From the NCBI GenBank assembly GCA_042215855.1, contig JBDGUM010000049.1, positions 1-52,305 of the forward strand: 52,305 nucleotides of DNA, given 5' to 3'. A program made the position numbers and the translations under genes. How positions within the stretch are numbered: position 1 is the first letter of the stretch; every line of letters starts with the position of its first letter. Source of the DNA: Halobellus sp. GTDB lineage: Archaea > Halobacteriota > Halobacteria > Halobacteriales > Haloferacaceae. This document shows positions 19,799-47,681 of the stretch, one piece after another. The notes beneath the pieces are model-generated. The model did no database searches. It had not been told where the DNA came from and worked only from the letters and a program-made list of their open reading frames with translations.

Positions 19799-21151
19799 AT
19801 GAGCGAAAGAGCGTGGTCCTTCAGCGACAGTATGGCGGAGGCCGTCGACAAGGCCGGCAGTCCGGTCGAACTCACCCGAGACCTCGGCGTCGGACAGTTC
19901 ACCGAGGTCCCGGACGAGATCACGAACTGGATCGAGGAGCAGCGGTCCTGGCGCGAGAGCGTCGCCTTCGCCGACCAGTCGTATCACATGACCGACCACT
20001 ACGTAGAGGGTCCCGACGCGCTGGACCTCTACAAGGACTTCGCGGTCAACAGCTTCGCGAACACCGAGCCCGGCAAGGCGAAGCAGCTCGTCGTCGCCAA
20101 CCCCAACGGGAACTACATCGGCGACGCGATCTGGTTCCACCTCGAAGAGGACAAGTTCCTGAGCGTCGGCAGCCGCCCCGCCCACAACTGGCTCCAGTAC
20201 CAGATCGAGACGGGCGACTACGACGTCGACGGACACATCCAGGGACGCCCGGTCCAGACCGGCGACGACCCGAACAACTTCCGCTTCCAGGTCCAGGGGC
20301 CGGAGGCGATCAAAGTGATGGAGGAGGCCGTCGACGGCGACCTCCCCGACCTCGGCTTCTTCAACTTCGCGGAGATCTCGATCGACGGTCACGACGCCTA
20401 CCTCCTGCGCCACGGGATGGCCGGCGAGCCCGGCTTCGAGTTCTGGGGCGACTACGAGAACGGCGAGGAAGTCAAGGAGGCCGTGATGGAGGCCGGCGAG
20501 GAGCACGACATCAAACATCTCGGCGCCGAGGCCTACCAGACGCCGAACGCGATCCTCGGCTGGATCCCGCTCGTCGTCCCCGCGATCTTCGAGGAGGGAA
20601 TGGAGGACTACCTCGAGTGGCTCGACGTCGGCGACGGCCTGCTGTCGATCGGCGGGAGCTTCGACTCCGACGACATCTCCGACTACTACTTCACCCCGGT
20701 CGAACTCGGTTACGGTCACATCATCAACTTCGACCACGACTTCGTGGGCGCCGACGCCCTGAAGGACGAGGTCGACGACCCCGACCGCAAGAAGGTCACC
20801 CTCGTCTGGGACGACGACGACGTCGTCGACATCTTCGCGTCGCTCTTCCGGGAGGGCGAGACCTACCAGTACATGGACTTCCCGCACCCGCGGACGGCCG
20901 CCTGCCCGTACGACGAGGTCCTCGTCGACGGCGAGCACGTCGGCGTCTCGACGGACAAGTCCTACATCTACAACGAGCGCGAGTTCCTCTCGCTCGCGGT
21001 CATCGACACCGAGTACGCCGAGCCCGGCACCGAGGTCACCCTCGTCTGGGGCGACCCCGAGGACAACGACAACAAGCGCGTCGAGCGCCACACCCAGAAG
21101 GAAGTCACCGCGACGGTCGCGAACGCGCCCTACAGCGAAGACAAGCGGTAA
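19799..21151 (+). CDS. GcvT-family THF-dependent aryl O-demethylase (LigM/DesA-like) 1
   Basis: NWIEEQRSWR, DQSYHM, AKQ, IGDAI, RFQVQGP, LRHGMAGEPG, IGGSF, FDHDFVG, KKVTL, YNE. Confidence 0.85.
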   Translation: MSERAWSFSDSMAEAVDKAGSPVELTRDLGVGQFTEVPDEITNWIEEQRSWRESVAFADQSYHMTDHYVEGPDALDLYKDFAVNSFANTEPGKAKQLVVANPNGNYIGDAIWFHLEEDKFLSVGSRPAHNWLQYQIETGDYDVDGHIQGRPVQTGDDPNNFRFQVQGPEAIKVMEEAVDGDLPDLGFFNFAEISIDGHDAYLLRHGMAGEPGFEFWGDYENGEEVKEAVMEAGEEHDIKHLGAEAYQTPNAILGWIPLVVPAIFEEGMEDYLEWLDVGDGLLSIGGSFDSDDISDYYFTPVELGYGHIINFDHDFVGADALKDEVDDPDRKKVTLVWDDDDVVDIFASLFREGETYQYMDFPHPRTAACPYDEVLVDGEHVGVSTDKSYIYNEREFLSLAVIDTEYAEPGTEVTLVWGDPEDNDNKRVERHTQKEVTATVANAPYSEDKR

Positions 21152-21361
21152 GCAGTTCAGACTGACCAGCCACGTCCGAACCTGACGTCCCTCCCACCCG
21201 GTTCGGCTTCGCTGACGTTTCCGGTCTCCCCTTCGACGATATCGACGACGGTGAGTCTCGACGCCGGTCGTTCGGCGGCCCACAGCCACCGCCGACACCC
21301 CCGACGCCACCCGCGACGGGATCGAGAAACTGCAAAGTACCCCGGGCGTCTCCGAGCGGGT

Positions 21362-22333
21362 ATGACGCGAGCCATCGTCGACCAGGACATCACGCCCACC
21401 GACCGACTCCTCGACCACCTCGACGACGACTGGGAGGTCACGGTCGGCATCGACGCCGACGAGGCGTCGGTCGAGGCCGAACTGGCGGAGTACGACGTCG
21501 CCTTCGTCACCTCGCGGGTACCGCTCACGAAGGCGGTCCTCGACAGCGCCGAGCGGCTCTCGCTGATCGGGAAACTGGGAACGGGGATCGACTCGATCGA
21601 CCTGGAAGCGGCCCGGGCGAACGGGGTCACCGTCACCCACACGCCCGGCCACAACGCCCTCTCGGTGGCCGAACACGCGCTCGGGCTGACGCTCGCGACC
21701 GCCCGACGGTTGCCCGTGGCGAGGGAGATCGTCGCCGAGGGCCGGTGGCGCGACGAGTACCCGCTCGGCACGCGGATCTCCGGCTCGACCGTCGGCATCG
21801 TCGGCTTCGGGAACGTCGGCAAGCGCGTGGGGATGCTCCTTTCCGGGTTCGACGTCGACGTCCTCGTCTCGGATCCGTACGTCCCGAGCATCGACGCCGA
21901 GTTAGCCCACGGCGAGCAGACCGATCTGGAGACGCTCCTCGGGGCGAGTGACGTGGTGATCCTCACCCCCGAACTCACAGCGGAGACCCGCGGCCTGATC
22001 GGCGAGGCCGAACTCGACTCGATGAAGTCGTCGGGGCTCCTGGTGAACGTCTCGCGCGGGCCCGTCGTCGTGGAGGCGGCGCTGATCGACGCGCTCCGGA
22101 ACGGCGCGATCGCCGGTGCCGGCCTGGACGTGTTCGAGTCCGAGCCCGTGCCGGCGGACTCGCCGCTCCAGGAACTGGACAACGCCGTCCTCACGCCCCA
22201 CATCGCGGCGATGACCGCCGAGTGCCGCGCGGGGAACATCGATCAGCTCGCGGCGAACGTCACGCGGCTGTTCGCCGGCGAGGAGGTCTTAGATCGGTAC
22301 GTTCCGGTGGACGCCGCCGACCTCGGGGAGTAG
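21362..22333 (+). CDS. D-isomer-specific 2-hydroxyacid dehydrogenase
   Basis: GTGIDSID, VAEH, GIVGFGNVG, NVSRG, LDVFESEP, TPHIA. Confidence 0.9.
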   Translation: MTRAIVDQDITPTDRLLDHLDDDWEVTVGIDADEASVEAELAEYDVAFVTSRVPLTKAVLDSAERLSLIGKLGTGIDSIDLEAARANGVTVTHTPGHNALSVAEHALGLTLATARRLPVAREIVAEGRWRDEYPLGTRISGSTVGIVGFGNVGKRVGMLLSGFDVDVLVSDPYVPSIDAELAHGEQTDLETLLGASDVVILTPELTAETRGLIGEAELDSMKSSGLLVNVSRGPVVVEAALIDALRNGAIAGAGLDVFESEPVPADSPLQELDNAVLTPHIAAMTAECRAGNIDQLAANVTRLFAGEEVLDRYVPVDAADLGE

Positions 22334-23153
22334 CCCTCGGCCGCCGAGATCGGTCCGATACGTTCGGATAGTGCTCCGCTACGATCGGCGGATTCTCAGT
22401 ATGCGGTTCGCAGGTCGGTGAGGCTTCGAGACAGAGATCGTAGACCTCGAAGGACAGGGGGCGCCGAGATTCGAAGGACCGCGGCGGGCCCACGGTTCCC
22501 CCATCCGTCGAAGCGGCAGGCGGTGGAATCGGGGATATCACGGTTGGGTCGTCTCGACCGGGGCGAACGTGTCCTAAATAGTATCAATCCGATCTTGTCG
22601 GTTAGCGGCCGTTACGGACGAGGGACGAGACCGTAAATCACGGTTCAGATCCGACAAATAACGCTCGTACACACATTACGGTCATAGGGTCGACAGGTAC
22701 TGCGGTGAAAATAACAGTAGTACGAGTGTTATTTCGATTCGTGTTCGTAGATCCCCTCGAAATTCCGTTCATCGTAGACGAATAGCGATCCGATATGAGC
22801 GGTGTTTCTGGAACGAGGGCAGTAACTGTCGCGTACGCGGAGGATTACGCGGATGCGACAGTCACCCACCGGCCGACGTGTTGCGACGGATCGCACTCTC
22901 CCGGCTATGACTCTCCGATCACGTCGGTGACCTCGACTGGTGAGATAGTCGATCTGATACGTCCTGAATTATTAATGGTGGATTTCGACCGGGGAGTTCC
23001 GCACCCTCAGTCCAGCGCGAACCGGCGCGGGGACCGATCGATCGGCCGCCGTCGAGACCGACTATCCGGCGTTCTCGGCCCCTCGAATCGTTCTTTTCAC
23101 GCGGTCTCCGAACAAATCGGAAGGTTCACAACGGTCGAAGCCGTTTTCGGGGT

Positions 23154-23915
23154 ATGCCCACGGACCGGACGTCACTCACGACCGTCACGCGCGCGTTCGA
23201 GGTCCTGGATCTGCTCTGGGAACTCGACGGGGCGGGGCCGTCGGAGTTGGCGACGCGGATGGACCTCCCGGACAGCACCGTCTACGATTACCTCCGGTCG
23301 CTGAGCGAGACGCGATACGTCACCCGCGAGGACGGCGAGTACCGGCTGAGTTCGTACTTCCTCACCATCGGCGGGAAGATGAAACACCGGAACAGGCTGT
23401 TCCAGGTGGCGAAACCCGAGATGAAGCGCGTGGTCTCCGAGACCGACGAACTGGTCGGTCTGACGATCGAGAACGACGGCCGAGCGGTCGTCTACCACCA
23501 GGAAGAGGGCCGCCAGGCGCTGAGCCTGGGGACATACACCGGCGCGGCCACGCCGATGCACACCGTCGCGACGGGGAAGGCGATCCTCGCGTACCTCCCC
23601 GAGGAACGCGTCGACGAGATCATCGCCGAACGCGGGCTCGAACAGCGCACCGAACACTCGATCACCGACCCCGACGAATTGAAGGCGGAACTGGCGCAGA
23701 TCCGCGAAGACGGCCACGCGGTCGACTGGAACGAACAGGTGGTCGGGATGGGGATGGCCGCGGTCCCGATCCTCGTCGAGGACGGCGTGCTGGGCTCGTT
23801 CGGGATCGTCGTCCCGACCGGACGGATCCGCGACGAGTCCTATCAGGAAGAGCTCCTCCAGAAGCTCCGCGAGATGGCGAACACCGTCACGATCAATTAC
23901 CAGTACGGGAACTGA
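23154..23915 (+). CDS. IclR family regulator
   Basis: HTH STVYDYLRSL; HTVATGKAILA; IREDGHAVD. Confidence 0.92.
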   Translation: MPTDRTSLTTVTRAFEVLDLLWELDGAGPSELATRMDLPDSTVYDYLRSLSETRYVTREDGEYRLSSYFLTIGGKMKHRNRLFQVAKPEMKRVVSETDELVGLTIENDGRAVVYHQEEGRQALSLGTYTGAATPMHTVATGKAILAYLPEERVDEIIAERGLEQRTEHSITDPDELKAELAQIREDGHAVDWNEQVVGMGMAAVPILVEDGVLGSFGIVVPTGRIRDESYQEELLQKLREMANTVTINYQYGN

Positions 23916-24046
23916 TCGCGACGCAGCCCGAGTCCGTCCCGCGGGGAAGTGTCGCCGATCCGGTGACGACGACACGAGCGGCTGCGGAAGTACGTGCGGT
24001 CGAACGACGGCGACGGTACAATCCTCGGGGTACGGCGCGCCGCGGA

Positions 24047-24457
24047 TTACTCGGCGATCGACTCCAGCGCCTCGCGGACCTCGTCGGGGAGCGGCACCGG
24101 CTCGTTGTCCGCCTTGGAGACGCAGACGTGCTGTTCGCGGGCGCTGAACCGCGTGTTGCCGTCCGCGTCGGTGGCGGTGAACTCGAGACCGAGGCTCTTG
24201 TTGCCGACGTCGGGCTCGACAGCGATGGTGAGGACGTCGCCCACTTCGACCGGCCGCTCGAAGTCGGTGTCCATCGAGACGATCGGGAGGTGCACCCCGT
24301 ACTCCTCGGGGATGTCCCAGTAGGCCACGTCGAGATCTTCCATCAACTCCTCGCCGGCGCGGTGCATCGCGTCGATCAGATTCGGATAGTACGCGATACC
24401 GTGGGGATCGGCATCTCCCCACGCGCACTTCCACTCGAACTCGAACATCACCCCCAC
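24047..24457 (-). CDS. hotdog-fold acyl-CoA thioesterase (4-hydroxybenzoyl-CoA thioesterase/YbgC-like)
   Basis: WGDADPHGIAYYPN motif; FERPVEVGD. Confidence 0.85.
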   Translation of the reverse strand: MGVMFEFEWKCAWGDADPHGIAYYPNLIDAMHRAGEELMEDLDVAYWDIPEEYGVHLPIVSMDTDFERPVEVGDVLTIAVEPDVGNKSLGLEFTATDADGNTRFSAREQHVCVSKADNEPVPLPDEVREALESIAE

Positions 24458-24556
24458 ATTCTTCTCTCATCATAAGTAGCTTTGCTCGCCGGCAGCAAAT
24501 TCGATCCTCGGAGACACAAACTACTAATACAATTATTGGGAATACTCGGAAACTGG

Positions 24557-26060: not shown

Positions 26061-26915
26061 ATGGCTTCCCAAGGACTCTCCGCGTCTTCGACGCGCACGA
26101 CCGCCGAATCGCTTCTCGAGAACCCCCGCTTCGAGCTGATGCCGTTCGACAGCTTCGACGACGAGATCGAACACCTGCCCGACGGCGCGACCATCACGAT
26201 CACGGCGTCTCCGCAACTGGAACTGGAGGCGACCATCGAGGCCGCCGAACGTGCCGCCCGGGAGGGCTACGAGGTCGTCCCGCACGTCTCCGCGCGCTAC
26301 GTCCGCGGCCCCGACCACCTCGCGGAGATCTGCGAGCGCCTCAAGGCCGTCGGCATCGAGGACATCTTCGTGCCGGGCGGCGACCGCGAGGAGCCGATCG
26401 GCGAGTTCGAGTCCGCCTACGATATGCTGGTGGCGCTCGACGACCTCGAGTACGAGTTCGAGGAGATCGGCATCACGGGGTATCCCGAAGGCCACGACTT
26501 CCTCTCGGAAGCGACGCTGGCCGAGGCGATGGAGAAGAAGGCCCCCTACGCGACGTACATCGCCACACAGCTGTGTTACGATCCGAACGCGGTGCTCGAA
26601 TGGATCGAGGAGGTCCGCGACCGCGGCATCGATCTCCCGATCGAGGTCGGCATCCCGGGCGTGATGAAGTACGAGAAGCTCCTGAGCATCTCCCAGAAGG
26701 TCGGCGTCGGCGACTCGGTGAAGTTCCTGAAGAAGACGACCGGCATATTCGGGTTCATCAAGCAGTTCATCGGTTCGCGCGGCCGGTACAAGCCGGACGA
26801 GCTCGTCGAGGGGCTCGCCCCGCACGCCGACGAGTACGGGATCCGCGGCCTCCACATCTACACGTTCAATCAGGTCCCCGACACGGAGGAGTGGCGGCGG
26901 AGCCGTCTCGACTGA
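26061..26915 (+). CDS. metF: methylenetetrahydrofolate reductase (MetF-like)
   Basis: PHVSAR, GGD, GYPEGH, TQLCYD, GIPG, LHIYTFNQ; directly after the ligM-like gene. Confidence 0.85.
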   Translation: MASQGLSASSTRTTAESLLENPRFELMPFDSFDDEIEHLPDGATITITASPQLELEATIEAAERAAREGYEVVPHVSARYVRGPDHLAEICERLKAVGIEDIFVPGGDREEPIGEFESAYDMLVALDDLEYEFEEIGITGYPEGHDFLSEATLAEAMEKKAPYATYIATQLCYDPNAVLEWIEEVRDRGIDLPIEVGIPGVMKYEKLLSISQKVGVGDSVKFLKKTTGIFGFIKQFIGSRGRYKPDELVEGLAPHADEYGIRGLHIYTFNQVPDTEEWRRSRLD

Positions 26916-28081: not shown

Positions 28082-28237
28082 TTCGCGGGTCCACCTCCGC
28101 TCAGAGTCGATTTCGGAGGTCTGGGCCCCCCACACGACGATCACCGCCTCCGCTGTTCTCCCGCTCCATCGTCGCGAGTCGCGTTCGTCGCGTCCGATAT
28201 CGGAATGCTTACCAGGGTTCCGCGGCCTCTCCCGCAT

Positions 28238-28603
28238 ATGATCGGTGAAATCGACCACATCGAGATCGAAGCGAGCGACGCAGAGGAGATGGCGGACTTC
28301 CTGAAGAAGCTCGGCTACGAGGAGCTCCGCACCACCGAGCACCACGGCGAGTCCTACGAACTCGTGCCCGGCGAGGAAGAGGGTCCGCTCTTCGAGATCC
28401 ACACCGTCGAGGGCGAGGAGGTCCCCGGCATCAACCACATCGCCTTCGCGGTCGACAACATCGACGAGATCACCGAGGAGCTCGAGGCCCAGGACGTCGA
28501 CTCCATCGTCGGCCCCTACGACGTCGAGGAGACCGGCCGCACGATCACGAACTTCCGCGACCCCGACGGCCGCCGCTTCCAGATCGTCGACGACAGCGAG
28601 TAG
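28238..28603 (+). CDS. VOC/glyoxalase family protein
   Basis: IDHIEI, INHIAFAVD, FRDPDG. Confidence 0.88.
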   Translation: MIGEIDHIEIEASDAEEMADFLKKLGYEELRTTEHHGESYELVPGEEEGPLFEIHTVEGEEVPGINHIAFAVDNIDEITEELEAQDVDSIVGPYDVEETGRTITNFRDPDGRRFQIVDDSE

Positions 28604-28720: not shown

Positions 28721-29506
28721 ATGGATCAACACAACAGTTTCAGACACGCGATCGAGAACGACGAGGTGATCTTCGGCGCCCGCTCGTCGACGTTCTCCCC
28801 GACAGTGATCGAGATCTACGGCGAACTCGGCATCGACTTCGTCTGGCTGGACTTCGAGCACATGGGGCCGAGCCCCTGGGACAGCACGGTCTTCGAGGAC
28901 CTGACGCGCGCGGCCGACGTCGGCGGGACGGAACTGTTCGTCCGCCTGCCGACCGGCGAGCCCTCTCTCATCAGAAAAGTGCTCGACGCCGGCGTCCGCA
29001 ACGTCTTCGTCCCGCGAGTCGACACCGCCGAGGAGGTCCGCGAGGCCGTGAAGGCGACGCGCTTCGACTACGGCGGCGAGCCCGGCGAGCGCGGGATGGC
29101 CAGCGGCCGCTCGCGCACCTGGGGCCTCGCCGGCGACGACTACATCGAGACCGAAGACGAGGAGGTCTGCATCGGCGTGATGATCGAGAAGACCACCGCC
29201 GTCGACGAACTCGACGAGATCCTCTCGGTCCCCGAACTCGGCTTCGTCTTCATCGGGCCCTCGGACCTCTCGGTCCAGATGGGTCACCCCGGCGACAAGA
29301 CCCACCCCGACGTCGCCAGCCAGATCACCGAGATCCGCGAGGCCGCCCACGACGCCGGCGTCCCGACGGGCGTGATCGCCAACGACCCCGAGGCCATCGA
29401 GGAGGCTGTCGAGAAGGGTCACCAGATCATCCGGATGGGCGGTGACCTCGCCTCGGTCAAGTCCGTCCTCTCCGAGCGTCTCGACGCGGTCGAGCACCTG
29501 CGGTAG
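28721..29506 (+). CDS. HpcH/HpaI class II aldolase
   Basis: DFVWLDFEH, KVLDAG, MIE, FIGPSDLS. Confidence 0.9.
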   Translation: MDQHNSFRHAIENDEVIFGARSSTFSPTVIEIYGELGIDFVWLDFEHMGPSPWDSTVFEDLTRAADVGGTELFVRLPTGEPSLIRKVLDAGVRNVFVPRVDTAEEVREAVKATRFDYGGEPGERGMASGRSRTWGLAGDDYIETEDEEVCIGVMIEKTTAVDELDEILSVPELGFVFIGPSDLSVQMGHPGDKTHPDVASQITEIREAAHDAGVPTGVIANDPEAIEEAVEKGHQIIRMGGDLASVKSVLSERLDAVEHLR

Positions 29507-29599
29507 ACCGAGAGCCCGGCGCTCACCGGCGCTCCGGCGCGTTCCGGACGCGTGGGCTGTCGAATGAATTATTACGCGGGGGGCGAGACTCCATACCGT

Positions 29600-30532
29600 A
29601 TGTCGCCGGAGCTTGCCCGTCTCAGTCACGTAGCGCTCGAAACCCCGGATCTGGAGGGATCGCTGGAATTCTTCGTCGACGCCGTCGGCTTCGAGGAGGT
29701 CGAACGCGAGGGCGATACCTCCTACCTCCGCGCGGTCGACGAGTTCAATCACCACTCGATCGTCCTCTCGGAGGCCGAGGAGGCCGGCGTCGACCACGTC
29801 GGCTGGCAGACGCGAAAGCCCGAGTACCTCGCCGAGTTCGAGGCGGTCCTCGACGAGGAGGGCATCGACGTGACCTGGATCGACGCCGGCGAGGAGCTCG
29901 GCCAGGGCGAGGCGTTCCGCTTCACCACGCCGACCGGCCACGAGTTCGAGTTCTACTACGAGATGGAGAAGCCCGATCCGCCGGCCGAGCGGCGCTCGAA
30001 GCTCAAGAACAAGACCTACTCGCGCACCACCACGAACCCGATCGCGCCGCGGCGGATCGACCACGTCCAGCTGTGGGACCCCGAGGCCAACGACTTCCGC
30101 GCGTGGCTGCAGGAGGCGCTGAACTTCCGCGTCCAGGAGCGCTATAATAGAAAAGACGGCTCCCGCTGGGGGACGTTCCTCAGCGCCAACGGCAACAAGA
30201 TCGAGGCCGCCGTGATCGAAGACGAAGAGGTGGCGAACGACCCCGCGCTCCACCACATCGCCTACAAGGTGGACACCGCCGACGACCTCTTCGACGCCCA
30301 CGACGCGATGAACGAACACGGCATCCCCACCGACGGGATCGGCCAGCACTCGATCTCCCGGGGGAAGTTCCTCTACGTGCGCGACCCCGTCAGCGGCCAC
30401 CGCATCGAGTTCAACGCCGGCGGCTACCTCGTCTTCGATCCCACCTGGGAGACGGTCGAGTGGGAGGAGGGCGACCTCGAAGACCGACAGTGGATCGGCC
30501 AGATCGAGTCGAAGGCGCGCGTCGAGTACTGA
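29600..30532 (+). CDS. type I extradiol (catechol 2,3-type) dioxygenase
   Basis: Two VOC domains; YLRA, RRIDHV, LHHIAY, H-x-I-S...LYVRDP-x-x-GHRIE giving the His-His-Glu metal triad. Confidence 0.88.
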   Translation: MSPELARLSHVALETPDLEGSLEFFVDAVGFEEVEREGDTSYLRAVDEFNHHSIVLSEAEEAGVDHVGWQTRKPEYLAEFEAVLDEEGIDVTWIDAGEELGQGEAFRFTTPTGHEFEFYYEMEKPDPPAERRSKLKNKTYSRTTTNPIAPRRIDHVQLWDPEANDFRAWLQEALNFRVQERYNRKDGSRWGTFLSANGNKIEAAVIEDEEVANDPALHHIAYKVDTADDLFDAHDAMNEHGIPTDGIGQHSISRGKFLYVRDPVSGHRIEFNAGGYLVFDPTWETVEWEEGDLEDRQWIGQIESKARVEY

Positions 30533-30614: not shown

Positions 30615-31580
30615 TCAGTAGTCGAGGACGTCCTCGATCCCCGCGGCGATCCGCGGCGGGTGCGGGATGTAGTAGTCCTCCATCGACAGGAGCGGCACCG
30701 GGATGTCGTAGCCGGTGATCCGCTCGACCGGCGCCTCGAGGTACATCAGCACCTCGTCGTTGATCGTGGCGACGATCTCGCTCGCCCAGCCGCCGCTGTA
30801 GGGCGCCTCGTGGACGACCGCACAGCGACCGGTCTTCCGCACCGACTCGACGACGGTCTCGCGGTCCATCGGCGAGATCGTCCGGAGGTCGATCACCTCG
30901 ACGTCGGCGTCGATGCGGTCGACCGCTTCGAGGGTCTTCTGCATCATCGCGCCCCAGGAGATCACCGTGACGTCCTCGCCTTCCCGGCGCACGGCGGCCT
31001 CGCCGATCGGGACCTCGTAGTCCTCGTCGGGGACGTCCTCGCGGATGGAGCGGTAGATGTGCTTGGGCTCCATGAACAGCACCGGATCGGGGCTCCGGAT
31101 CGCGGACTTGAGCAGCCCCTTCGTGTCGTAGGGCGTGCTCGGGATCACGACCTGGAGGCCCGGCACGTGGGCGTAGGCGCCCTCCAGGCTCTCGGAGTGG
31201 TGCTCGAGCGCGCGGATGCCGGCCCCGTACGGCGTCCGGACGACCATCGACGCGGTCCACTGCCCGCGGGTGCGCCAGCGCATCCGGCTGGCGTGGGTCA
31301 CGAGCTGGTCGAACGCCGGCGGGAGGAACCCCGAGAACTGGATCTCCGCGACCGGGCGGAGGCCGAAGACGGCGAGGCCGACCGCGCCGCCGGTGATCGC
31401 GATCTCCGACAGCGGCGTGTCGACGACGCGGTCGCCGCCGAACTGCTCCTTCAGTCCCTCCGTGGCCCTGAAGACCCCGCCGGTCTCGGCGACGTCCTCG
31501 CCGAAGACGACGACGCGGTCGTCGCGCTCCATCTCCTCTCGCAGCGCCATATTGACGGCGTTGATGATAGTTTCAGCCAT
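30615..31580 (-). CDS. 2-oxoacid dehydrogenase E1 beta subunit
   Basis: GEDV..GGVFRAT, DTPLSE, EIQF, EHHSES, FMEPK, DLRTI. Confidence 0.93.
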   Translation of the reverse strand: MAETIINAVNMALREEMERDDRVVVFGEDVAETGGVFRATEGLKEQFGGDRVVDTPLSEIAITGGAVGLAVFGLRPVAEIQFSGFLPPAFDQLVTHASRMRWRTRGQWTASMVVRTPYGAGIRALEHHSESLEGAYAHVPGLQVVIPSTPYDTKGLLKSAIRSPDPVLFMEPKHIYRSIREDVPDEDYEVPIGEAAVRREGEDVTVISWGAMMQKTLEAVDRIDADVEVIDLRTISPMDRETVVESVRKTGRCAVVHEAPYSGGWASEIVATINDEVLMYLEAPVERITGYDIPVPLLSMEDYYIPHPPRIAAGIEDVLDY

Positions 31581-31583
31581 TGG

Positions 31584-32660
31584 TCACCCCTTGGGTCGCC
31601 GTTCGATGTACTCCTCGAGGTCGTCCAGCTCCTCGAGGTCGCGTTTCATCTCGTCTAGCTGTTCCTGCAGGATCGGCGGGAGGTCGTCGTAGACGTACTC
31701 GAACAGCTCGTCGACGTCGCGCGGGCCGAACTCGTCGGCGGCCTCGACGGCCGCGGAGAACTCCTCGTCGACCTCGGCGACGAGCGACTCCTTGTCGACC
31801 TCGTCCCAGAGCCCCTCGGACTTGAGGAACGACTCGTAGCGCTCGATCGGGTCGCGTTCGAGCCACTCCTCGACCTCCTCGCGGCCCCGGTACTCGGTGG
31901 GGTCGTCGCTGGTGGAGTGGCCCTCGGTCCGGTAGGTGAGCGCCTCGAAGAGGACCGGATGGCCCGCGCGGGCGAGCTTCCGCGCCTCCCGCATCGCGTC
32001 GTACACCGCGAGGACGTCGTTGCCGTCGGCGCGGATGCCGTGGACGCCGTAGCCGAGCCCCCGCTGGGCGATGGTGTTGGCGTTGGTCTGCTTCTCGAAG
32101 GGCGTCGAGATGGCCCACTGGTTGTTCTGACAGTAGAAGATCGCGGGGGCGTCGAGGACGCCCGCGAAGTTGACCGCCTCGTGGAACGCGCCGGTGGACG
32201 TCGCGCCGTCGCCGAAGTGCGCGGTGACGACCGCGTCGGTGTCGGTGAGGTTCATCCCCCAGCCGATTCCGGTGGTCATCGGGAGGTAGCCGCCGACGGA
32301 GATGCCGATCATACAGTTCCGCTCGGTGAGGAAGCGCTGGGCGTCCTCGACGCCGCGCCAGAAGAGGATGATGTCCCGCAGCGAGACGCCGCGCTGGAGC
32401 ATCGCGCTCGTCTCGCGGCCCATCCCGAGGAGCCAGTCGCCGTCCCGGAGGGCGTAGCCGCTCCCGACGATGCTCGCCTCGTGGCCGCGGCTGGAGCCGA
32501 CCGTGCCCATCTGGCCCCGCCGCTGGAGTTTGATCATCCGCTCGGCGTAGCGCTTCTCGACGAGCATCCACCGGTAGAGGTCGAGGAACTCCTCCTCCTC
32601 GAGGTCCGGGACGTCGTCGGGGTCGGCCGCGTCGACGGAGCCGATGGAACGACAGAACAA
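31584..32660 (-). CDS. 2-oxoacid dehydrogenase E1 alpha subunit (start uncertain, possibly truncated)
   Basis: GDGATSTG...NNQWAIS TPP motif and YRTEGHSTSDDP; only a TTG start is available upstream of VPDL. Confidence 0.8.
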   Translation of the reverse strand: MFCRSIGSVDAADPDDVPDLEEEEFLDLYRWMLVEKRYAERMIKLQRRGQMGTVGSSRGHEASIVGSGYALRDGDWLLGMGRETSAMLQRGVSLRDIILFWRGVEDAQRFLTERNCMIGISVGGYLPMTTGIGWGMNLTDTDAVVTAHFGDGATSTGAFHEAVNFAGVLDAPAIFYCQNNQWAISTPFEKQTNANTIAQRGLGYGVHGIRADGNDVLAVYDAMREARKLARAGHPVLFEALTYRTEGHSTSDDPTEYRGREEVEEWLERDPIERYESFLKSEGLWDEVDKESLVAEVDEEFSAAVEAADEFGPRDVDELFEYVYDDLPPILQEQLDEMKRDLEELDDLEEYIERRPKG

Positions 32661-36819: not shown

Positions 36820-36820
36820 G

Positions 36821-37552
36821 ATGGACGTCGTCACCGCACTCCGCGCACGGGAAGGCGTCACCTGTATGGTCGGCGCCGGGGGCAAGAAGACCACGATGCA
36901 GACGCTCGCGGGGGACCTGGAGGGCGCGGTCGTCACCGCCACGGTCCGGATCCCGATCTTCGACGACTGGGTCGGCCGCGTCGTCGTCACCGACGACCCC
37001 GTCGCGGCCGTCGACGAGGCCGAGGGCGACCCGGAGGCGTGGCCGCTCGGCGTCGTCCCCGAGCGCGAGCGCGAGGATCGCTACTTCGGCTACGAGCTCG
37101 ACGTCCTCGACGAGCTCGCCGCGCTCGACGTCCCGGTGCTCGCGAAGGCCGACGGCGCGCGGATGCGGCGGCTCAAGGCGCCGAGCGAGAACGAGCCCCG
37201 AATTCCCGGGAGCGCCGACACCGTGGTCCCGATCGCGAGCGCGCACGTCGTCGGCGAGCCGCTCTCGGACGCCCTCGTCCACCGCGTCGACGAGGTCGCG
37301 GCGCTCACGGGTCTCGATCCCGGCGACGAGATCCGCCCCGCGGACGTCGCGGCCGTGCTCGCGAGCGAGGAGGGCGGGCTGAAGGGCGTGCCCGACGACG
37401 CGACGCCGATCCCGCTCCTGAACATGGTCGACGACGACGAACTCGAAGCGAGCGCCCGCGAGGTCGCCGCGGAGATCCACGAGCGGGCCGACGTGCCGCG
37501 GGTCGTCCTCGCGGAGATGCGCGCCGACGACCCGATCGTCGACGTGGTTTGA
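36821..37552 (+). CDS. yqeC: selenium-dependent molybdenum hydroxylase accessory protein YqeC
   Basis: VGAGGKKT and ADGARMRRLKAP..NEPRIP motifs. Confidence 0.8.
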   Translation: MDVVTALRAREGVTCMVGAGGKKTTMQTLAGDLEGAVVTATVRIPIFDDWVGRVVVTDDPVAAVDEAEGDPEAWPLGVVPEREREDRYFGYELDVLDELAALDVPVLAKADGARMRRLKAPSENEPRIPGSADTVVPIASAHVVGEPLSDALVHRVDEVAALTGLDPGDEIRPADVAAVLASEEGGLKGVPDDATPIPLLNMVDDDELEASAREVAAEIHERADVPRVVLAEMRADDPIVDVV

Positions 37553-37564
37553 GCGGACGCGGTA

Positions 37565-38182
37565 TTACCCCTCCCCGGAGAGCCGCTCGACCGCGCGCTC
37601 GAACTCCTCGTGGGTGTTGAGGTTCTCGAACGTCCCCATCGACGAGACCCGCTCGATCTCGTCGCGGTCGAGGACGACCGTGTCGAGGTCCTCGAGCGGG
37701 GCGACGATCCGGCTGTCGTCGCGTTCGAGCGCGCGGCGGCAGGCCGCGAGCATCGGCTCGGTCCGGTAGACCGCCTGGGTCGTCTGGAACCACTCGTCGG
37801 GACGCGGGACGGCGGCGTCGTGGTCTTCCGCGCGTTCGAAGAGGTGCTCGACGAACGCGGGATCGACGAACGGCATATCGCAGGCGACGACGAACGCGTA
37901 CTCGGCGTCGACCTCCTCCAGTCCGCGGGCGATGCCGGCCATCGGCCCCGCGTCGGGCTCGCGATCGATCGCGAGCGTCGGGTCGACGTCGGCGTCGGCG
38001 AACGCGGCGCGGATGGCGTCCTCCTGGTCGGATCGACAGTTGAGCACGACCTCGTCCACGATGCCGACGACGCGGTCGACCACCCGGCGGATCATCGGCG
38101 TCCCGGCGAGGTCGGCGACGGCCTTGTCGCGGTCGCCGAAGCGGGTCGAGCGACCGCCGGCGAGGACCAGTACGGCGCGCAT
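37565..38182 (-). CDS. mobA: molybdenum cofactor guanylyltransferase
   Basis: LAGGRSTRFG..DKA, GPMAGI, ACDMPF, NLNT. Confidence 0.9.
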   Translation of the reverse strand: MRAVLVLAGGRSTRFGDRDKAVADLAGTPMIRRVVDRVVGIVDEVVLNCRSDQEDAIRAAFADADVDPTLAIDREPDAGPMAGIARGLEEVDAEYAFVVACDMPFVDPAFVEHLFERAEDHDAAVPRPDEWFQTTQAVYRTEPMLAACRRALERDDSRIVAPLEDLDTVVLDRDEIERVSSMGTFENLNTHEEFERAVERLSGEG

Positions 38183-38904: not shown

Positions 38905-38915
38905 CCCGGCCCCCG

Positions 38916-41582: not shown

Positions 41583-41682
41583 ACACGGACCTCGGACGGC
41601 GTCACAATAAAAATACGGAGCGAGTCCGTCGGTGCCGTGCGAGATCGAACCGCGTAAGTCGCCGACCCGTCTCCGGGGCGGT

Positions 41683-42591: not shown

Positions 42592-42691
42592 GATCACACG
42601 CTTACCGGTCGCTCACCTGGGATCGTAGACAAAGTCGCCAAGCGGCGTTGATCGTCGTCCTGGCCGCCCGTATCGGCGCGAGTGAGGGCGA

Positions 42692-42976: not shown

Positions 42977-43743
42977 AGTGGTAGTACGTCGGGAGGACGG
43001 ATAAAGATCCGGTTCCGCGTGCTAACTGGGAGACTGGTCGGTGGTAACGGCTCTCATTATTGTCGTGAACCGCCTCGGCCTGCTCCGCCTGTAGAAACGG
43101 AACTCGAACCTGTTCACACGACTTTATGATTCAAAATAGTAAGATATATTTGATATATATTTTTTCTATAATTTCAATTTAGAAGGCCGAAATGAGCTCT
43201 CAATTGTCGCTAAAGACCAGTTCCAGCGTTATATTTATAGCCACTTTTCTTATCTGATCCTGTGCAGTAAATTATATGATGTATTTCTTGGAGCCGCCTC
43301 CCGTTGTCCGGTAATGACGGACGCATTTGTCCGATGGAATGACACGGCAGCAGTTTTCGCGAAGTGAATCCCGATAGCGGGAGTCATTCCTAGAATCGAA
43401 TCGAGAGTGGTTGTAACTGGCGAGAACCCTGATAGGCGAAGGAACGTATGACTCGATGAACGAAACGTATCGTAACAAACGTACTTCTGTTACTCCGGTC
43501 GGTGGGGTCGAGCGTGCTCCCAGCGTCAGGCAGTGACCGGAGCTCGCTGTAGTGCGATTTCTCCCGGTTTGGTGTCATTCCCGACCCCCGGAATTTCGTC
43601 CGGAATTAGCGGACGAACCGTTCGAGGGAACCGAAGACAGCGGCTGCGAGGCGGCGTCGTCGCAAGCGTGAGGCGCACGACGTGGGGTGCGCGAGTCGTC
43701 GTCGATAACGGTCCCCGAACCGCGTCGCCGACACGAGGGACGG

Positions 43744-45276
43744 TTACTCGTGGTCGCGGTTCTCGAGTTTGTATCGTTCGATCTTCCCGCTCGGGTTGCG
43801 CGGGAGTTCGTCGAGGAACCGGTACTCCCGCGGCCGCTTGTAGTCCGCCAGGTCGTCGCTGTCGCGGCACCACTCGTCCAACTCCCCCTCGGTCACGTCG
43901 CCGTTCCGTTCGACGAAGGCGACGACGATCTCGCCCCACTCCTCGTCGGGGTGACCGACGACGCCAGCGTCCGAGACCTCGGGGTGTGTGAGTAGGACGT
44001 CCTCGACTTCCGTCGGGTGGATGTTCTCGCCGCCGCTGATGATCATATCGTCGACGCGGCCGGTGATGACGATCCGGTTCTCCTCGGTCCGGCGGGCGGC
44101 GTCGCCGGTGTAGAACCACCCCTCGTGGATCGCTTCCTCGGTGGCCTCGGGCTTGTTCCAGTAGCCGTCGAAGGCGACCGGCGAGTCCGTGTTGACGATG
44201 AGTTCCCCCTGGGTGCCCGGTTCGACCGTGTCCTGGGGATCGTCGCTGTCGACGGCGACGACGCGCGTTTCGAGGCCGACGTTCGCGGGCCCGGTCACGG
44301 TCGGGTCGCGGATGTCCTGGAGGTCGATGTACGCGAGGGTGCCGTAGACCTCGGTGGTCCCGTAGAGGTTCGCGATGTGGTCGGGGTCGAACGTCTCGAT
44401 CGTCCGCTCGAAGACGGCCTGGCTCATCGGCGCGCCGGAGTAGCCGATCGTGTCGACCGACGAGATGTCGACCTCGTCGATCGCGTCGGTGTCGAGCATA
44501 TTCGCGAAGATGGTCGGCGCCTCGTGCAACGCCGTGACCCCGTAGTCCTCGATGGCCCGGACGGCGGTTTCGGGGTCGAACTCGGACATACACAGGTAGG
44601 TACCGCTCATCGAGAGCAGGCCGCAGAGGATGCCGTGAAGGCCGACGGTGTGGTACAGCGGCATAACCCCGATCATCGTCTCGTCGAGGTAGTAGTGCTG
44701 GCCGAGGGAGTTGATGATCCACCGGGAGGAGGTCGAATCGTGGTCCAGCGGGATCCCCTTCGGGTCGCCGGTGGTCCCGGAGCTGTACAGCATCACGCTC
44801 GGATCGTCGTAGCCGACGTCGACGTCGGGTTTCCCGGCCGGGGCGTCGGCGAAGTCCTCGAAGGGTTCCGCGAAGTCGGGCGCGTCGTCGCCGACGTAGA
44901 CCGCCGGCACCTCGATGTCGTCTTCGACCGACGCGACCGCCTCGCGGGAGATCTCGTCGAAGAGGAACAGCTCGGGATCGGAGTCCGCGATGTGGTAGCG
45001 GACGCCGCTGGCGGCCAGCCGGAAGTTGAACGGGACGGCGACGACGCCGGCCAGCTGGGTGGCGACGAACGTCACGACGTGTTCTGGGCGGTTCGCCATA
45101 CAGATCGCCACCCGGTCGCCGGGTTCGATCCCCCGATCCCGGAGCGCGGTGGCGACGCGGTACGCCCGGGTCCGGAGCTCCGAGTAGGTCAGCTCGGCCC
45201 CGTCGTTCAGGTGGGCGATCGCGGTCCGGTCGGGTGTTCGAGCGACCGATTGCTCGAACGTGGAAGGGAACAACAT
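43744..45276 (-). CDS. AMP-forming acyl/aryl-CoA ligase
   Basis: YSSGTTGDPKG, PLYHTVG, YGTTE, TGD, ISGGENI, PRNPSGK. Confidence 0.92.
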   Translation of the reverse strand: MLFPSTFEQSVARTPDRTAIAHLNDGAELTYSELRTRAYRVATALRDRGIEPGDRVAICMANRPEHVVTFVATQLAGVVAVPFNFRLAASGVRYHIADSDPELFLFDEISREAVASVEDDIEVPAVYVGDDAPDFAEPFEDFADAPAGKPDVDVGYDDPSVMLYSSGTTGDPKGIPLDHDSTSSRWIINSLGQHYYLDETMIGVMPLYHTVGLHGILCGLLSMSGTYLCMSEFDPETAVRAIEDYGVTALHEAPTIFANMLDTDAIDEVDISSVDTIGYSGAPMSQAVFERTIETFDPDHIANLYGTTEVYGTLAYIDLQDIRDPTVTGPANVGLETRVVAVDSDDPQDTVEPGTQGELIVNTDSPVAFDGYWNKPEATEEAIHEGWFYTGDAARRTEENRIVITGRVDDMIISGGENIHPTEVEDVLLTHPEVSDAGVVGHPDEEWGEIVVAFVERNGDVTEGELDEWCRDSDDLADYKRPREYRFLDELPRNPSGKIERYKLENRDHE

Positions 45277-45393
45277 ACGCTACGGTCTATTCGAAGGGAG
45301 TGTAATAATTTTTCCTCTCGGTTGGTCGCATCCGACGCCGGCGCCGATCGATTCGGGAGCGTCGGCGTCTGACGGGCCGGGTCGTCCTCAGTA

Positions 45394-46149
45394 TCAGTAG
45401 TATCGGTAGTTGACAGCGATCTCCTCGGCGGCCGCGCGGACGTTCTGGATCAGGTCGTTCCGATAGTCGTCCTGTTCGAGCCGCCCGGTCGGGCAGGCGA
45501 CCGAGACGCTCCCGAGGAGGTCGCCGTCCTCGATGACCGGGCAGGCGACGAAACCGATTCCGACGACCTGCTCCTCGCGGTCGATCGCGTAGCCGTTCTC
45601 GCGGATGCCTTCGAGCTCCGAGCGGAGCTCGTCGGGATCGGTGACCGTCTGCTCGGTCACCGCCTCGAGTTCGTCGACGTCGAGCAGTTCGTCGATGCGC
45701 TCGTCCGGCAGGTGCGCGAGCAGGACCTTACCGGCGGCGTGGGAGTGGATCGGCGTCCGGAAGCCGGGGTAGGTCCCCGTCTGGACGGAGGTGAGATCGC
45801 CCGCCTCGTGGAGCATCACCCACTCGCCGTCCTCCTCCTGGCCGAGCTGGGCGAGCTCGTCGGACTGCTCGGAGAGCTTCTCGAGGACGACGTCCGAGGA
45901 GCGGAAGAACCGGCTGCGGTACTTGAGCAGGCTGCCGCGCTCGAGGAAGCGGTAGCTGATCCGGTACGTGCCGGCCTCCCTGACGACGAAGCCCGTCGCC
46001 TCCAGCGAGACGAGGTAGTCGTGGGCGGTGCTCCGGTTGACGCCCATCAGACCTGCGATCTCCGCGGGGCCGGCTTCCCCCTCGCGTTCCAGCAGGTCGA
46101 GGACCTCGAACGCCCGGGCGACCGTCTGGAGTGGGACGTCTGAACTCAC
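45394..46149 (-). CDS. IclR family regulator
   Basis: RSTAHDYL HTH; HSHAAGKVLLA; GYAIDREE. Confidence 0.92.
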   Translation of the reverse strand: MSSDVPLQTVARAFEVLDLLEREGEAGPAEIAGLMGVNRSTAHDYLVSLEATGFVVREAGTYRISYRFLERGSLLKYRSRFFRSSDVVLEKLSEQSDELAQLGQEEDGEWVMLHEAGDLTSVQTGTYPGFRTPIHSHAAGKVLLAHLPDERIDELLDVDELEAVTEQTVTDPDELRSELEGIRENGYAIDREEQVVGIGFVACPVIEDGDLLGSVSVACPTGRLEQDDYRNDLIQNVRAAAEEIAVNYRYY

Positions 46150-46295
46150 AGTCCTACGTCCGGCCCCGAAAGTATGAAACACTATCGCTCGGTGCGGTCG
46201 CCCGGAGCGAGCGAGCGGAGTGTGACTTCGGACGTTGACCGAAAGCCAAGAAAAATTTAAATATTATTATACGGAAGATAGCCGCAGGCAGCACT

Positions 46296-47681
46296 ATGAC
46301 AGAGAGCCTCGAAGACGCGCTTCAGCGAGCCGACAGTCCAGTCGATTTCGTCCGATCACCCGCCCGAGGGGCGGACACCGGCCACCTCCGCCTGTTCACC
46401 GATCTCCCCGACGAGGTGACGAACTGGCGAGAGGAGCAGTCCGCGTGGGCCGACAGCGTCGCGCTGGCGGACCTCTCGCACCATATGACTGACCTCCACG
46501 TCGAGGGCCCCGACGCGCTCGACCTCTTTTCGGACCTCGGCATCAACGACTTCTCCTCGTTCGAGCCGGGACAGGCGAAGCAGTTCGCCGCGACCAGCCC
46601 CGACGGCTACCTCATCGGCGACGGCATCCTCTTCCATCTCGGCGAGGACGAGTTCAACCTCGTCGGCTACGGCCCGATCAACTGGGTCGAGTTCCACGCC
46701 GAGACCCGCGACTACGACGTCGAGACCGAACGCGACGAGCACGGCGGGCTTCGGGAGGGCCCGCCGAAGACGTTCCGCTACCAGGTCCAGGGCCCCGACG
46801 CGCTCGACCTGATCACGGAGGTCGTCGACGGCGACCTCCCCGAGGTGCCGTTCTTCAACTTCCGCGAGGTCTCGATCGCCGGCCACGAGGTCAACGCTCT
46901 CCGCCACGGGATGCTGAACGAGCCCGGATTCGAGTTCTTCGGCCCCTGGGAGCACGCCGAGGACGTCCGCACTGCGATTATGGAGACGGGCCGGGACTAC
47001 GACATCCGCCGGATCGGTGCGAAGGCCTACCCGACGAACGTGATCACGGCGGCGTGGATGTCGATCCCGCTGCCGGCGATCTACCACGACGACGACCTCC
47101 TGGCGGAGTACCGCGAGTGGCTCGACGTGGATAGCTTCGAGGGCGCGCTCGCCATCGGCGGCAGCCTCGACTCCGAGGACATCACCGACCACTACCTGAC
47201 GCCGGTCGAGGCGGGCCACGGTCGCTTCGTCGATCTCGACCACGACTTCGTCGGGAGGGACGCGGTGGCCGAACAGCTCGAGAACGAGGACCGCACCCGG
47301 GTCACGCTCGTGTGGGATCAGGAGGCCACGACGGAGCTGTACGGCGGGGCGCTCTTCGACGACGACGCCACCTACCGGTACACCGATCTGCCCGTCGCCG
47401 ACTGGGCGCTGACCCAGAACGACAGGGTCCTGAAGGACGGCGACGTCGTCGGCGTCGCCAACAACACCCGCTACCTCTACTTCGAGCGGCGGATGTTCTC
47501 GCTGTGCGCGATCGACTCCGAACTCGCCGAGCCCGGCACCGAGGTCTCGATCCTCTGGGGCGAGCCCGACTCCGGGAACCCGCGCGTCGAGGACCACGAA
47601 CAGACGGAGGTCACGGCGACCGTCGCGCCGGCGCCGTACTTCGAGGACAAGCGCAAGACTGCGGACTACAACGCGAACTGA
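46296..47681 (+). CDS. GcvT-family THF-dependent aryl O-demethylase (LigM/DesA-like) 3
   Basis: NWREEQ, DLSHHM, IGDGILF, RYQVQGP, GAKAYPTN, PLPAIY, AIGGS. Confidence 0.87.
   Translation: MTESLEDALQRADSPVDFVRSPARGADTGHLRLFTDLPDEVTNWREEQSAWADSVALADLSHHMTDLHVEGPDALDLFSDLGINDFSSFEPGQAKQFAATSPDGYLIGDGILFHLGEDEFNLVGYGPINWVEFHAETRDYDVETERDEHGGLREGPPKTFRYQVQGPDALDLITEVVDGDLPEVPFFNFREVSIAGHEVNALRHGMLNEPGFEFFGPWEHAEDVRTAIMETGRDYDIRRIGAKAYPTNVITAAWMSIPLPAIYHDDDLLAEYREWLDVDSFEGALAIGGSLDSEDITDHYLTPVEAGHGRFVDLDHDFVGRDAVAEQLENEDRTRVTLVWDQEATTELYGGALFDDDATYRYTDLPVADWALTQNDRVLKDGDVVGVANNTRYLYFERRMFSLCAIDSELAEPGTEVSILWGEPDSGNPRVEDHEQTEVTATVAPAPYFEDKRKTADYNAN

What the first reader, a model, noticed from the sequence alone, without database searches (positions are those of the whole stretch)
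19799..47681. Three LigM paralogs keep the catalytic His/Tyr but each alters the carboxylate-binding Arg position
Compared with SYK-6 LigM as I recall it (DQTHHM His60, VGRAP Arg122, GSRAYPSN Tyr247), all three keep the His (DQSYHM, DQSHHM, DLSHHM) and the Tyr (GAEAYQT, GGMSYGS, GAKAYPT). The Arg segment reads VGSRP, VGPPQ and VGYGP. Every paralog also lies within one or two genes of a CoA ligase. Inference: the paralogs have diverged specificities and may demethylate aryl-CoA thioesters or non-benzoate substrates, which would be new chemistry for this family.
Basis: partly seen in the sequence, partly recalled or inferred. Interest (0 to 1): 0.75.

Follow-up and report, generated by a model that had tools for sequence, protein, structure and literature searches.

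The report
Haloarchaeal demethylase expansion with rebuilt pockets
These three genes belong to a much-expanded family of LigM-like enzymes in one genus of salt-loving archaea, likely folate-dependent demethylases of different plant-type aromatic compounds; the missing arginine is shared by all their haloarchaeal relatives examined and by a known enzyme that works on a free acid, so it does not show action on CoA esters.

Summary
The motifs are real. All three proteins keep LigM His60 and Tyr247 and have Ser, Pro or Tyr at Arg122. The CoA inference is weak. Arg122 is absent from 98 of 98 haloarchaeal homologs, which form one clade, and only 21 of 98 have an intact ligase within 3 kb. This genome's other three paralogs also lack it and have no ligase nearby. 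Dmt06, a characterised enzyme acting on free dicamba, has Gly there. The ligase beside paralog 2 is a 5'-truncated remnant of a ~7 kb deletion. What holds up: this is a genus-level expansion (1-14 copies in 18 of 25 genomes), each ortholog group with its own conserved pocket, so diverged specificity is likely. Paralog 1 is tightly linked to one ligase (11 of 11 genomes). It sits in a conserved island with a thioesterase, MetF, an extradiol dioxygenase and an aldolase, but no hydratase or thiolase. Best reading: free-acid O-demethylases downstream of CoA-dependent side-chain processing (0.55). Aryl-CoA demethylation by paralog 1 or 3 stays open (0.25).

The parts
17990..19594 (+). Intact acyl/aryl-CoA ligase (lig1, 534 aa); substrate not assignable
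   Evidence: Pfam AMP-binding; ortholog >=84% in exactly the 11 of 25 genus genomes that carry a P1 ortholog
19799..21151 (+). LigM-like paralog P1 (450 aa): His60 and Tyr247 kept, Ser at Arg122
   Evidence: AlphaFold pLDDT 93.8, TM 0.92 to LigM-vanillate 5X1J
21251..22333 (+). D-2-hydroxyacid dehydrogenase family gene, conserved beside P1 (true start probably downstream of the GTG)
23154..23915 (+). IclR-family regulator
24047..24448 (-). 4HBT-type acyl-CoA thioesterase, divergent from P2
   Evidence: ortholog >=74% in exactly the 9 genus genomes with P2
24557..25906 (+). LigM-like paralog P2 (449 aa): His60 and Tyr247 kept, Pro at Arg122
26061..26915 (+). MetF/MTHFR, closest to the methyl-THF-oxidising SYK-6 enzyme, but Leu48, Cys219 and Pro268 are not kept
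   Evidence: 7XG9 132 bits vs <=47 for other MTHFRs; motifs from PMC11868366
26957..28081 (+). 5'-truncated CoA-ligase remnant (no start codon), left by loss of about 7 kb (ABC transporter, amidohydrolase, ligase N-terminus)
28205..28603 (+). Small VOC-family protein
28721..29506 (+). HpcH/HpaI-type aldolase
29552..30532 (+). Extradiol (catechol 2,3-type) ring-cleavage dioxygenase
   Evidence: TIGR03211 250 bits, HpaD 210 bits, both below cut-off
30615..32660 (-). 2-oxoacid (pyruvate) dehydrogenase E1 beta and alpha
43744..45276 (-). Intact CoA ligase (lig3, 510 aa); closest solved structure 4-chlorobenzoate-CoA ligase
   Evidence: 261 bits vs 236 for the next family
45394..46182 (-). IclR-family regulator, divergent from P3
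46296..47681 (+). LigM-like paralog P3 (461 aa): His60 and Tyr247 kept, Tyr at Arg122, Leu at Gln57
47816..49132 (+). Branched-chain-type ABC solute-binding protein
49167..50711 (+). Intact CoA ligase (lig4, 514 aa)

Best explanation
The three proteins are members of a haloarchaeal clade of LigM-fold enzymes that likely move a methyl group from different methoxylated aromatic acids onto tetrahydrofolate, most likely acting on the free acids rather than on CoA esters. Shown: the fold, the His60 and Tyr247 positions, clade-wide absence of Arg122, group-specific pocket sequences and the conserved gene island. Inferred for P1 and P2: a methoxylated aromatic acid is imported, its side chain is processed as a CoA ester (ligase, with the thioesterase releasing the acid), and P1 and P2 remove methyl groups from two substrates or in sequence, as DesA and LigM do. 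The resulting catechol would be opened by the extradiol dioxygenase, the VOC protein and aldolase would give pyruvate for the E1 genes, and MetF (with FolD and PurU in relatives) would recycle methyl-THF. The carboxylate is plausibly held by a relocated basic residue (P1 Arg365/Lys387, P2 Arg366, P3 Arg388); this is a post hoc sequence pattern, not a modelled contact. The exact substrates are not identified.
For: Fold and catalytic positions; His60 in 89 and Tyr247 in 90 of 98 haloarchaeal homologs. Folate coupling: metF follows P2 and is closest to the CH3-THF-oxidising type; P1 orthologs in other families sit with folD, metF, purU and mptA or pabAB. Arg122 loss independent of CoA: 0 of 98 have Arg and 21 of 98 have a ligase within 3 kb; the other three G000 paralogs sit by housekeeping genes, an ABC/HAD pair and suf genes; one clade, SH support 1.0; only 4 of 27 scorable 50%-identity family representatives have Arg122. 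Free-acid precedents: Dmt06 has Gly122 and demethylates free dicamba but not vanillate or syringate; A. fabrum Atu1420 is clustered with a feruloyl-CoA synthetase yet acts on vanillic acid; an R. opacus homolog with His122 lies in a metF-purU-folD-extradiol dioxygenase cluster with no ligase among the 20 annotated features. Basic residue in LigM segments 369-374 or 392-395: 85 of 86 haloarchaeal rows vs 1 of 74 bacterial Arg122 sequences. The best bacterial plasmid hit of lig1 (36%) lies beside a p-hydroxycinnamoyl-CoA hydratase/lyase.
Against: No enoyl-CoA hydratase, thiolase or acyl-CoA dehydrogenase was found in the island in the window or in relatives, so the step between ligase and thioesterase is unexplained. 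lig1 is adjacent to P1 in 13 of 14 loci. The 'compensating' basic residues were picked after looking and are confounded by ancestry; 15 of 23 non-Arg family representatives lack them, including the Dmt06-cluster representative P0014. No coordinates were available to place them in the pocket. No activity was measured.
Confidence: 0.55

Rival explanations
1. P1, and perhaps P3, demethylate an aryl-CoA thioester: the ligase activates the acid, the demethylase acts on the activated ring and the thioesterase releases the catechol acid. This is the ligase-modifier-thioesterase logic recalled for 4-chlorobenzoate dehalogenation and 4-hydroxybenzoate NIH-shift pathways.
For: The lig1 ortholog occurs in exactly the 11 of 25 genus genomes that have P1. 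It is 101-450 bp upstream in 13 of 14 loci and about 7 kb away in the last, and the order recurs in Halosolutus as thioesterase-ligase-P1-P2-dehydrogenase. No beta-oxidation gene is in the island. The VOC-aldolase-dioxygenase module also occurs with a ligase-free paralog group, so it does not need CoA. P1 orthologs have Gly, Ala or Ser at 122. P3 has an intact ligase within 1.1 kb in 6 of 7 loci, and lig3 is closest to 4-chlorobenzoate-CoA ligase.
Against: Arg122 loss carries no information about CoA. Two P1 genomes (G304, G305) lack the thioesterase ortholog. G304 has a 79% lig3 ortholog beside an extradiol dioxygenase with no LigM-like gene in 19 kb. P1's sister group (64-68% identical, same pocket signatures) has a ligase within 3 kb in 0 of 11 loci. 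P3 has a bulky Tyr at 122, and no thioesterase was found within 7 kb of it. P2 has an intact ligase within 3 kb in 0 of 9 loci.
Confidence: 0.25
2. The substrates lack a ring carboxylate altogether (guaiacol-type phenols, aldehydes, glycosides, methylenedioxy or N-methyl compounds), as for SesA and BrdA.
For: The wider family includes enzymes for berberine and sesamin. Other haloarchaeal paralog groups sit with sugar- or polyamine-type ABC transporters, a HAD phosphatase, or an aldehyde dehydrogenase and ThDP enzyme, which suggests varied substrates.
Against: For the three window paralogs the neighbours are acid-activating ligases and branched-chain-type transporters, which point to carboxylic acids. 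They keep the His60/Tyr247 pair and are 42-48% identical to LigM-type proteins, whereas BrdA is 26.7% identical to LigM.
Confidence: 0.15
3. The substitutions reflect decay or drift of redundant copies.
For: One neighbouring ligase here is a remnant, and G036 carries broken P1 and P3 loci.
Against: All three ORFs are intact. Orthologs are 68-95% identical with invariant group-specific pocket motifs across up to 14 genomes and several families.
Confidence: 0.03

Closest known systems
LigM and DesA of Sphingobium SYK-6 (PDB 5X1I-5X1N, 5TL4; NF047885, NF047633)
   Same: Fold (TM 0.92, 42% identity for P1); His60, Tyr247, Glu215, Trp256 and Gln93 positions; linkage to metF
   Different: Arg122 absent; the Tyr29/Tyr31 loop, the 248-253 helix and the Phe393 segment differ; scores below both curated cut-offs; archaeal host with up to 14 copies
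Dmt06 dicamba demethylase (UUJ74874.1; PMC9404685)
   Same: LigM-fold, THF-dependent, His60 and Tyr247 kept, no Arg122 (Gly), narrow specificity excluding vanillate and syringate
   Different: Separate bacterial clade (40% identity to P1); acts on a free ortho-methoxybenzoate
A. fabrum SpG8-1b ferulate cluster (Atu1415-1421; PMC7797058)
   Same: CoA ligase, LigM-type demethylase and MetF in one cluster
   Different: That cluster has a hydratase, a dehydrogenase and a ketothiolase; none was found here. The ring is opened by pca genes there and likely by an extradiol dioxygenase here
SesA and BrdA demethylenases (PMC5547118)
   Same: GcvT-family THF-dependent enzymes on non-benzoate aromatics
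   Different: Only about 27% identical to LigM; remove a methylene, not a methyl
Ligase-modifier-thioesterase pathways (4-chlorobenzoate Fcb; recalled)
   Same: Ligase plus thioesterase without beta-oxidation genes; lig3 is closest to 4-chlorobenzoate-CoA ligase
   Different: The modifying enzyme there is not a GcvT-family protein; no THF-dependent demethylase of a CoA ester turned up

Membership tests
GcvT-family LigM-like methyltransferases | GCV_T folate-binding domain and LigM fold | tested here: met
   Pfam PF01571 126-138 bits in all three; P1 model TM 0.92 to 5X1J; P2 and P3 not modelled
GcvT-family LigM-like methyltransferases | His60 and Tyr247 positions | tested here: met
   catalytic role of these residues recalled (a methyl-transferring tyrosine is mentioned in PMC9296663)
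GcvT-family LigM-like methyltransferases | Methyl transfer from an aryl methyl ether to THF | not testable with these tools
   needs an assay; the metF, folD and purU context supports it
LigM vanillate/3-O-methylgallate O-demethylase (NF047885) | Score above the curated cut-off of 580 | tested here: not met
   413, 466 and 422 bits
LigM vanillate/3-O-methylgallate O-demethylase (NF047885) | Arg122 | tested here: not met
   Ser, Pro, Tyr
DesA syringate O-demethylase (NF047633) | Score above the curated cut-off of 800 | tested here: not met
   467, 514 and 475 bits; 0 of 301 class genomes reach it
Aryl-CoA demethylase (proposed) | Arg122 loss tracks a CoA-ligase neighbour | tested here: not met
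   0 of 98 with Arg, 21 of 98 with an intact ligase within 3 kb; bacteria 5 of 74 with Arg vs 1 of 8 without
Aryl-CoA demethylase (proposed) | Conserved linkage to an intact ligase and a thioesterase | tested here: inconclusive
   P1: ligase in 11 of 11 genus genomes, thioesterase in 9 of 11; P3: ligase in 6 of 7 loci, no thioesterase within 7 kb; P2: no intact ligase within 3 kb
Aryl-CoA demethylase (proposed) | Pocket open to a pantetheine arm, no compensating cation | not testable with these tools
   model coordinates are not returned; sequence shows group-conserved Arg/Lys candidates
Type 4 (CH3-THF-oxidising) MTHFR, for the linked metF | Leu48-Pro49, Cys219, Pro268-Phe269, Arg78 | tested here: inconclusive
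   closest structure is 7XG9; Pro49, Arg78 and Phe269 kept, Leu48, Cys219 and Pro268 not

The most novel reading that the evidence does not exclude
P1 (and possibly P3) is a tetrahydrofolate-dependent O-demethylase of aryl-CoA thioesters. It would work between its invariant partner ligase and a thioesterase in an undescribed archaeal route for methoxylated aromatics, as part of a genus-level radiation of up to 14 LigM-like enzymes with different pockets.
Probability: 0.25. Interest if true: 0.72.

Novelty: new variant of a known kind. Interest (0 to 1): 0.45.

Why it matters
No paper on haloarchaeal LigM-type enzymes came up in the searches run. One search listed 25 of 63 hits, and only one of them, an encapsulin review, mentions haloarchaea. 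A genus carrying 1-14 copies, each with its own conserved pocket and gene neighbourhood, suggests an undescribed archaeal niche in demethylating plant-type aromatics in brines. It is also a natural library of oxygen-independent, salt-tolerant demethylases for lignin work, where O-demethylation is called a key bottleneck (PMC6021390, abstract). If P1 proves to act on CoA esters, that would be a new substrate class for the family. The Arg122 change by itself is ordinary and should not be read as a CoA signature.

Tried and rejected
1. Shifted Arg of P1 (VGSRP) as the compensating residue: rejected; only 5 of 14 orthologs have it. 2. P2's downstream ligase as a functional neighbour: rejected; it is a truncated remnant. 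Whether the gap is a true deletion or a mis-assembly was not checked with reads; either way the intact gene lies about 7 genes away. 3. First AlphaFold run with 6 sequences: pLDDT 50, discarded. The 126-sequence model was good, but no coordinates are returned, so no docking or pocket mapping was possible. 4. The two LigM structure papers could not be read, and searches for Arg122, Tyr247 or His60 with LigM returned nothing; roles of Arg122, Tyr31 and Phe393 are recalled. 5. Substrate assignment of lig1, the VOC protein and the amidohydrolase from PDB, NCBIfam and the ESM Atlas gave only generic families. 6. A VceA/VceB analogy was considered (bioRxiv 2022.04.28.489975, passages). It shows that SYK-6 hydrolyses vanilloyl-CoA to the free acid, but the window's VOC protein could not be tied to VceA. 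7. A gentisate/4-hydroxybenzoyl-CoA link for P3: a partial gentisate dioxygenase match, a thioesterase and a lig4-like ligase lie on contig C76, not near P3. 8. Earlier scan findings: none. 9. No complex prediction, read mapping or word-indexed homolog search was run.
Full report
Setting. The window is contig C1 of a 1.87 Mb haloarchaeal assembly that is 69% complete. Named Halobellus records carry close orthologs (lig1 87%), so the genus is probably Halobellus; this is an inference from similarity.

Observation. The nine motifs lie in three intact ORFs: P1 19799-21151, P2 24557-25906 (ATG start) and P3 46296-47681. They are 49-53% identical to each other. They score 413-466 bits on the LigM model (cut-off 580) and 467-514 on the DesA model (cut-off 800), so they are LigM-like but neither equivalog. 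The LigM chain 5X1I has DQTHHM, VGRAP and GSRAYPSN at a constant offset of 3 from His60, Arg122 and Tyr247, and aligns without gaps over the Arg segment. Position 122 is Ser, Pro and Tyr in P1, P2 and P3. A 126-sequence AlphaFold model of P1 (pLDDT 93.8) matches LigM-vanillate 5X1J at TM 0.92. That Arg122 binds the carboxylate is recalled; the structure papers were not held.

The ligase neighbours. P1 follows an intact ligase (lig1). P3 lies between two intact ligases (lig3 across a divergent IclR, lig4 after a binding protein). The ligase after P2-metF is a 369-aa match with no start codon. In 7 of the 8 P2-bearing relatives read downstream, a 74-86% identical full-length ligase lies behind livGFHM, a binding protein and an amidohydrolase; the eighth has no ligase there. 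The window has lost about 7 kb, and the adjacency to P2 is a by-product of that loss.

Does Arg122 loss mean CoA? No. The genome has three more paralogs, on C25, C3 and C2, with Ala, Thr and Glu at 122. None has a ligase among the neighbours scanned. In the genus, 18 of 25 genomes carry 1-14 matches; across the class, 11 of 301 genomes in 4 of 80 genera do (at most 5 candidates scored per genome). I fetched flanks for nearly all genus matches and five from other genera. Among 98 distinct haloarchaeal sequences of at least 300 aa (four shorter pieces dropped), none has Arg122; 8 have Lys and 1 is a gap. Only 21 have an intact ligase within 3 kb: 13 of 14 in the P1 group, 6 of 7 in the P3 group, 0 of 9 in the P2 group and 2 others. 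In 82 bacterial homologs (from the best 80 of more than 607 pattern matches, so a biased set), 74 have Arg122; a ligase lies within 3 kb for 5 of those 74 and 1 of the other 8. A FastTree of 176 sequences (every second bacterial Arg row and rows under 380 aa left out; midpoint root, not tested) puts all haloarchaeal proteins in one clade with SH support 1.0, with Arg122 confined to bacterial branches. Of 71 full-length 50%-identity representatives, 37 lack His60 or Tyr247 and 7 could not be scored; 4 of the remaining 27 have Arg122. Arg122 is therefore a trait of the LigM/DesA branch, and its absence here is inherited, not three separate adaptations. Kin are not independent, so these counts are descriptive.

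A direct counter-example. P0159 is named 'THF-dependent dicamba demethylase' and Actinomadura parvosata protein in the collection. It is 473 aa and starts with the residues encoded by the Dmt06 cloning primer, so it is Dmt06. It keeps His60 and Tyr247 and has Gly at 122. Purified Dmt06 demethylates free dicamba with THF and does not act on vanillate or syringate (PMC9404685, passages and section 18). Loss of Arg122 thus goes with changed specificity on a free acid. In A. fabrum the LigM homolog Atu1420 shares a cluster with feruloyl-CoA synthetase and converts vanillic acid (PMC7797058, passages). Non-benzoate substrates are known in the wider family: BrdA on berberine and SesA on sesamin (PMC5547118, parts 1-2 of 4).

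What has changed. The whole pocket region differs between groups and is fixed within them: the Tyr29/Tyr31 loop, the 147 loop, residues 248-253 and the 369-374 and 392-395 segments. P1's shifted Arg is in only 5 of 14 orthologs, but the group keeps the Arg147 equivalent, Arg365 and (in at least 85%) Lys387; P2 keeps Arg366 and P3 Arg388. A basic residue in the last two segments occurs in 85 of 86 haloarchaeal rows and 1 of 74 bacterial Arg122 sequences, and in 4 of 7 bacterial non-Arg ones. This fits a relocated carboxylate anchor. Against it: the segments were chosen after looking, ancestry confounds the count, 15 of 23 non-Arg family representatives lack such a residue, and I could not place these residues in the pocket.

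The island. The conserved order in the genus is lig1, P1, 2-hydroxyacid dehydrogenase, IclR, thioesterase (divergent), P2, metF, ABC transporter, amidohydrolase, ligase 2, VOC, HpcH aldolase, extradiol dioxygenase, with E1 alpha/beta nearby. P1 orthologs in other families sit with folD, metF, purU, mptA or pabAB. The window's MetF is closest to the methyl-THF-oxidising SYK-6 enzyme (132 bits vs 47 or less) but keeps only some of its motifs (PMC11868366, passages). This supports THF-dependent demethylation feeding extradiol cleavage and pyruvate formation (inferred).

What keeps the CoA idea alive. lig1 orthologs (at least 84%) occur in exactly the 11 of 25 genus genomes with P1. A Halosolutus plasmid repeats thioesterase-ligase-P1-P2 (not added to the counts). 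No hydratase or thiolase was found in the island, and G000 has a single enoyl-CoA hydratase match elsewhere. The VOC-aldolase-dioxygenase module also accompanies a ligase-free group. So some enzyme must use the CoA ester, and P1 is a candidate; lig3's closest structure is 4-chlorobenzoate-CoA ligase. Against this: two P1 genomes lack the thioesterase ortholog; P1's sister group has no ligase in 11 of 11 loci; a lig3 ortholog occurs beside a dioxygenase without any LigM in G304; and the amidohydrolase beside ligase 2 could be a ketoacyl-CoA hydrolase of the CouO type (recalled, untested). A search for THF-dependent demethylation of aryl-CoA esters listed 30 of 42 hits, and none by title or abstract start describes it. 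The library lacks most subscription papers, and no supplements were read.

Verdict. The sequence observation is right except for P2's ligase. Diverged specificity is likely. The step from Arg122 to CoA does not follow. The more solid finding is an undescribed haloarchaeal radiation of LigM-like enzymes and a conserved aromatic-catabolic island. Free-acid demethylation 0.55, aryl-CoA for P1 or P3 0.25, non-carboxylate substrates 0.15, decay 0.03. Interest 0.45.

Noticed in passing
genus-wide: LigM-like genes are expanded to as many as 14 per genome in this genus but found in only 4 of 80 genera of the class; there are at least 10 ortholog groups with distinct pocket motifs and neighbourhoods.
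   Followed up: partly
L002:7512-8870 and 12 orthologs (L140-L156, L178): The most widespread group (Thr at 122, Met61 to Gln) sits between a PotA/D-like or sugar-type ABC transporter and a HAD phosphatase, with no aromatic genes; it may act on a non-aromatic or phosphorylated methylated compound.
   Followed up: partly
L162-L164, L169-L171, L173, L174: An 8-member group has Lys at 122 and sits with VOC, aldolase, extradiol dioxygenase, IclR and a sugar-type ABC transporter, without a ligase; a candidate for a methoxylated glycoside or a free acid.
   Followed up: partly
L001:6414-7748 and 10 orthologs: P1's sister group (64-68% identity) sits at a fixed place among housekeeping genes with no catabolic neighbours.
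   Followed up: partly
L151, L175, L180, L181, L183-L185, L192: Eight more distant homologs lack both His60 and Tyr247; they may be demethylenase-like (SesA/BrdA type; not tested).
   Followed up: no
window 13531-17221 (-): An SsuA/NMT1-type ABC transporter with two binding proteins lies divergent from lig1 in a lower-GC stretch; it was not found at this place in the 10 related loci.
   Followed up: no
G000:C76 (L206): A partial gentisate 1,2-dioxygenase match, a thioesterase (35% to the window's), an ADP-forming CoA-ligase piece and a lig4-like ligase (49%) suggest a second aryl-CoA cluster.
   Followed up: partly
The lig1 ligase family is itself expanded (up to 8 matches per genome) in much the same genomes as the demethylases.
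   Followed up: no
L214:9756-14498 and L129 (G036): In one relative both the P1 island and the P3 locus are decaying, with frameshifted ligase, P1, P3, dehydrogenase and thioesterase.
   Followed up: no
L210:8995-10350 (R. opacus plasmid): A bacterial LigM group without Arg122 carries a K-[AS]-R-Y motif at 369-372 and here lies in a full folate-recycling plus extradiol cleavage operon.
   Followed up: partly
window 36821-38182: yqeC (selenium cofactor) and a MobA-like nucleotidyltransferase lie next to an iron alcohol dehydrogenase; cobalamin methyltransferase genes are at 803-3176.
   Followed up: no
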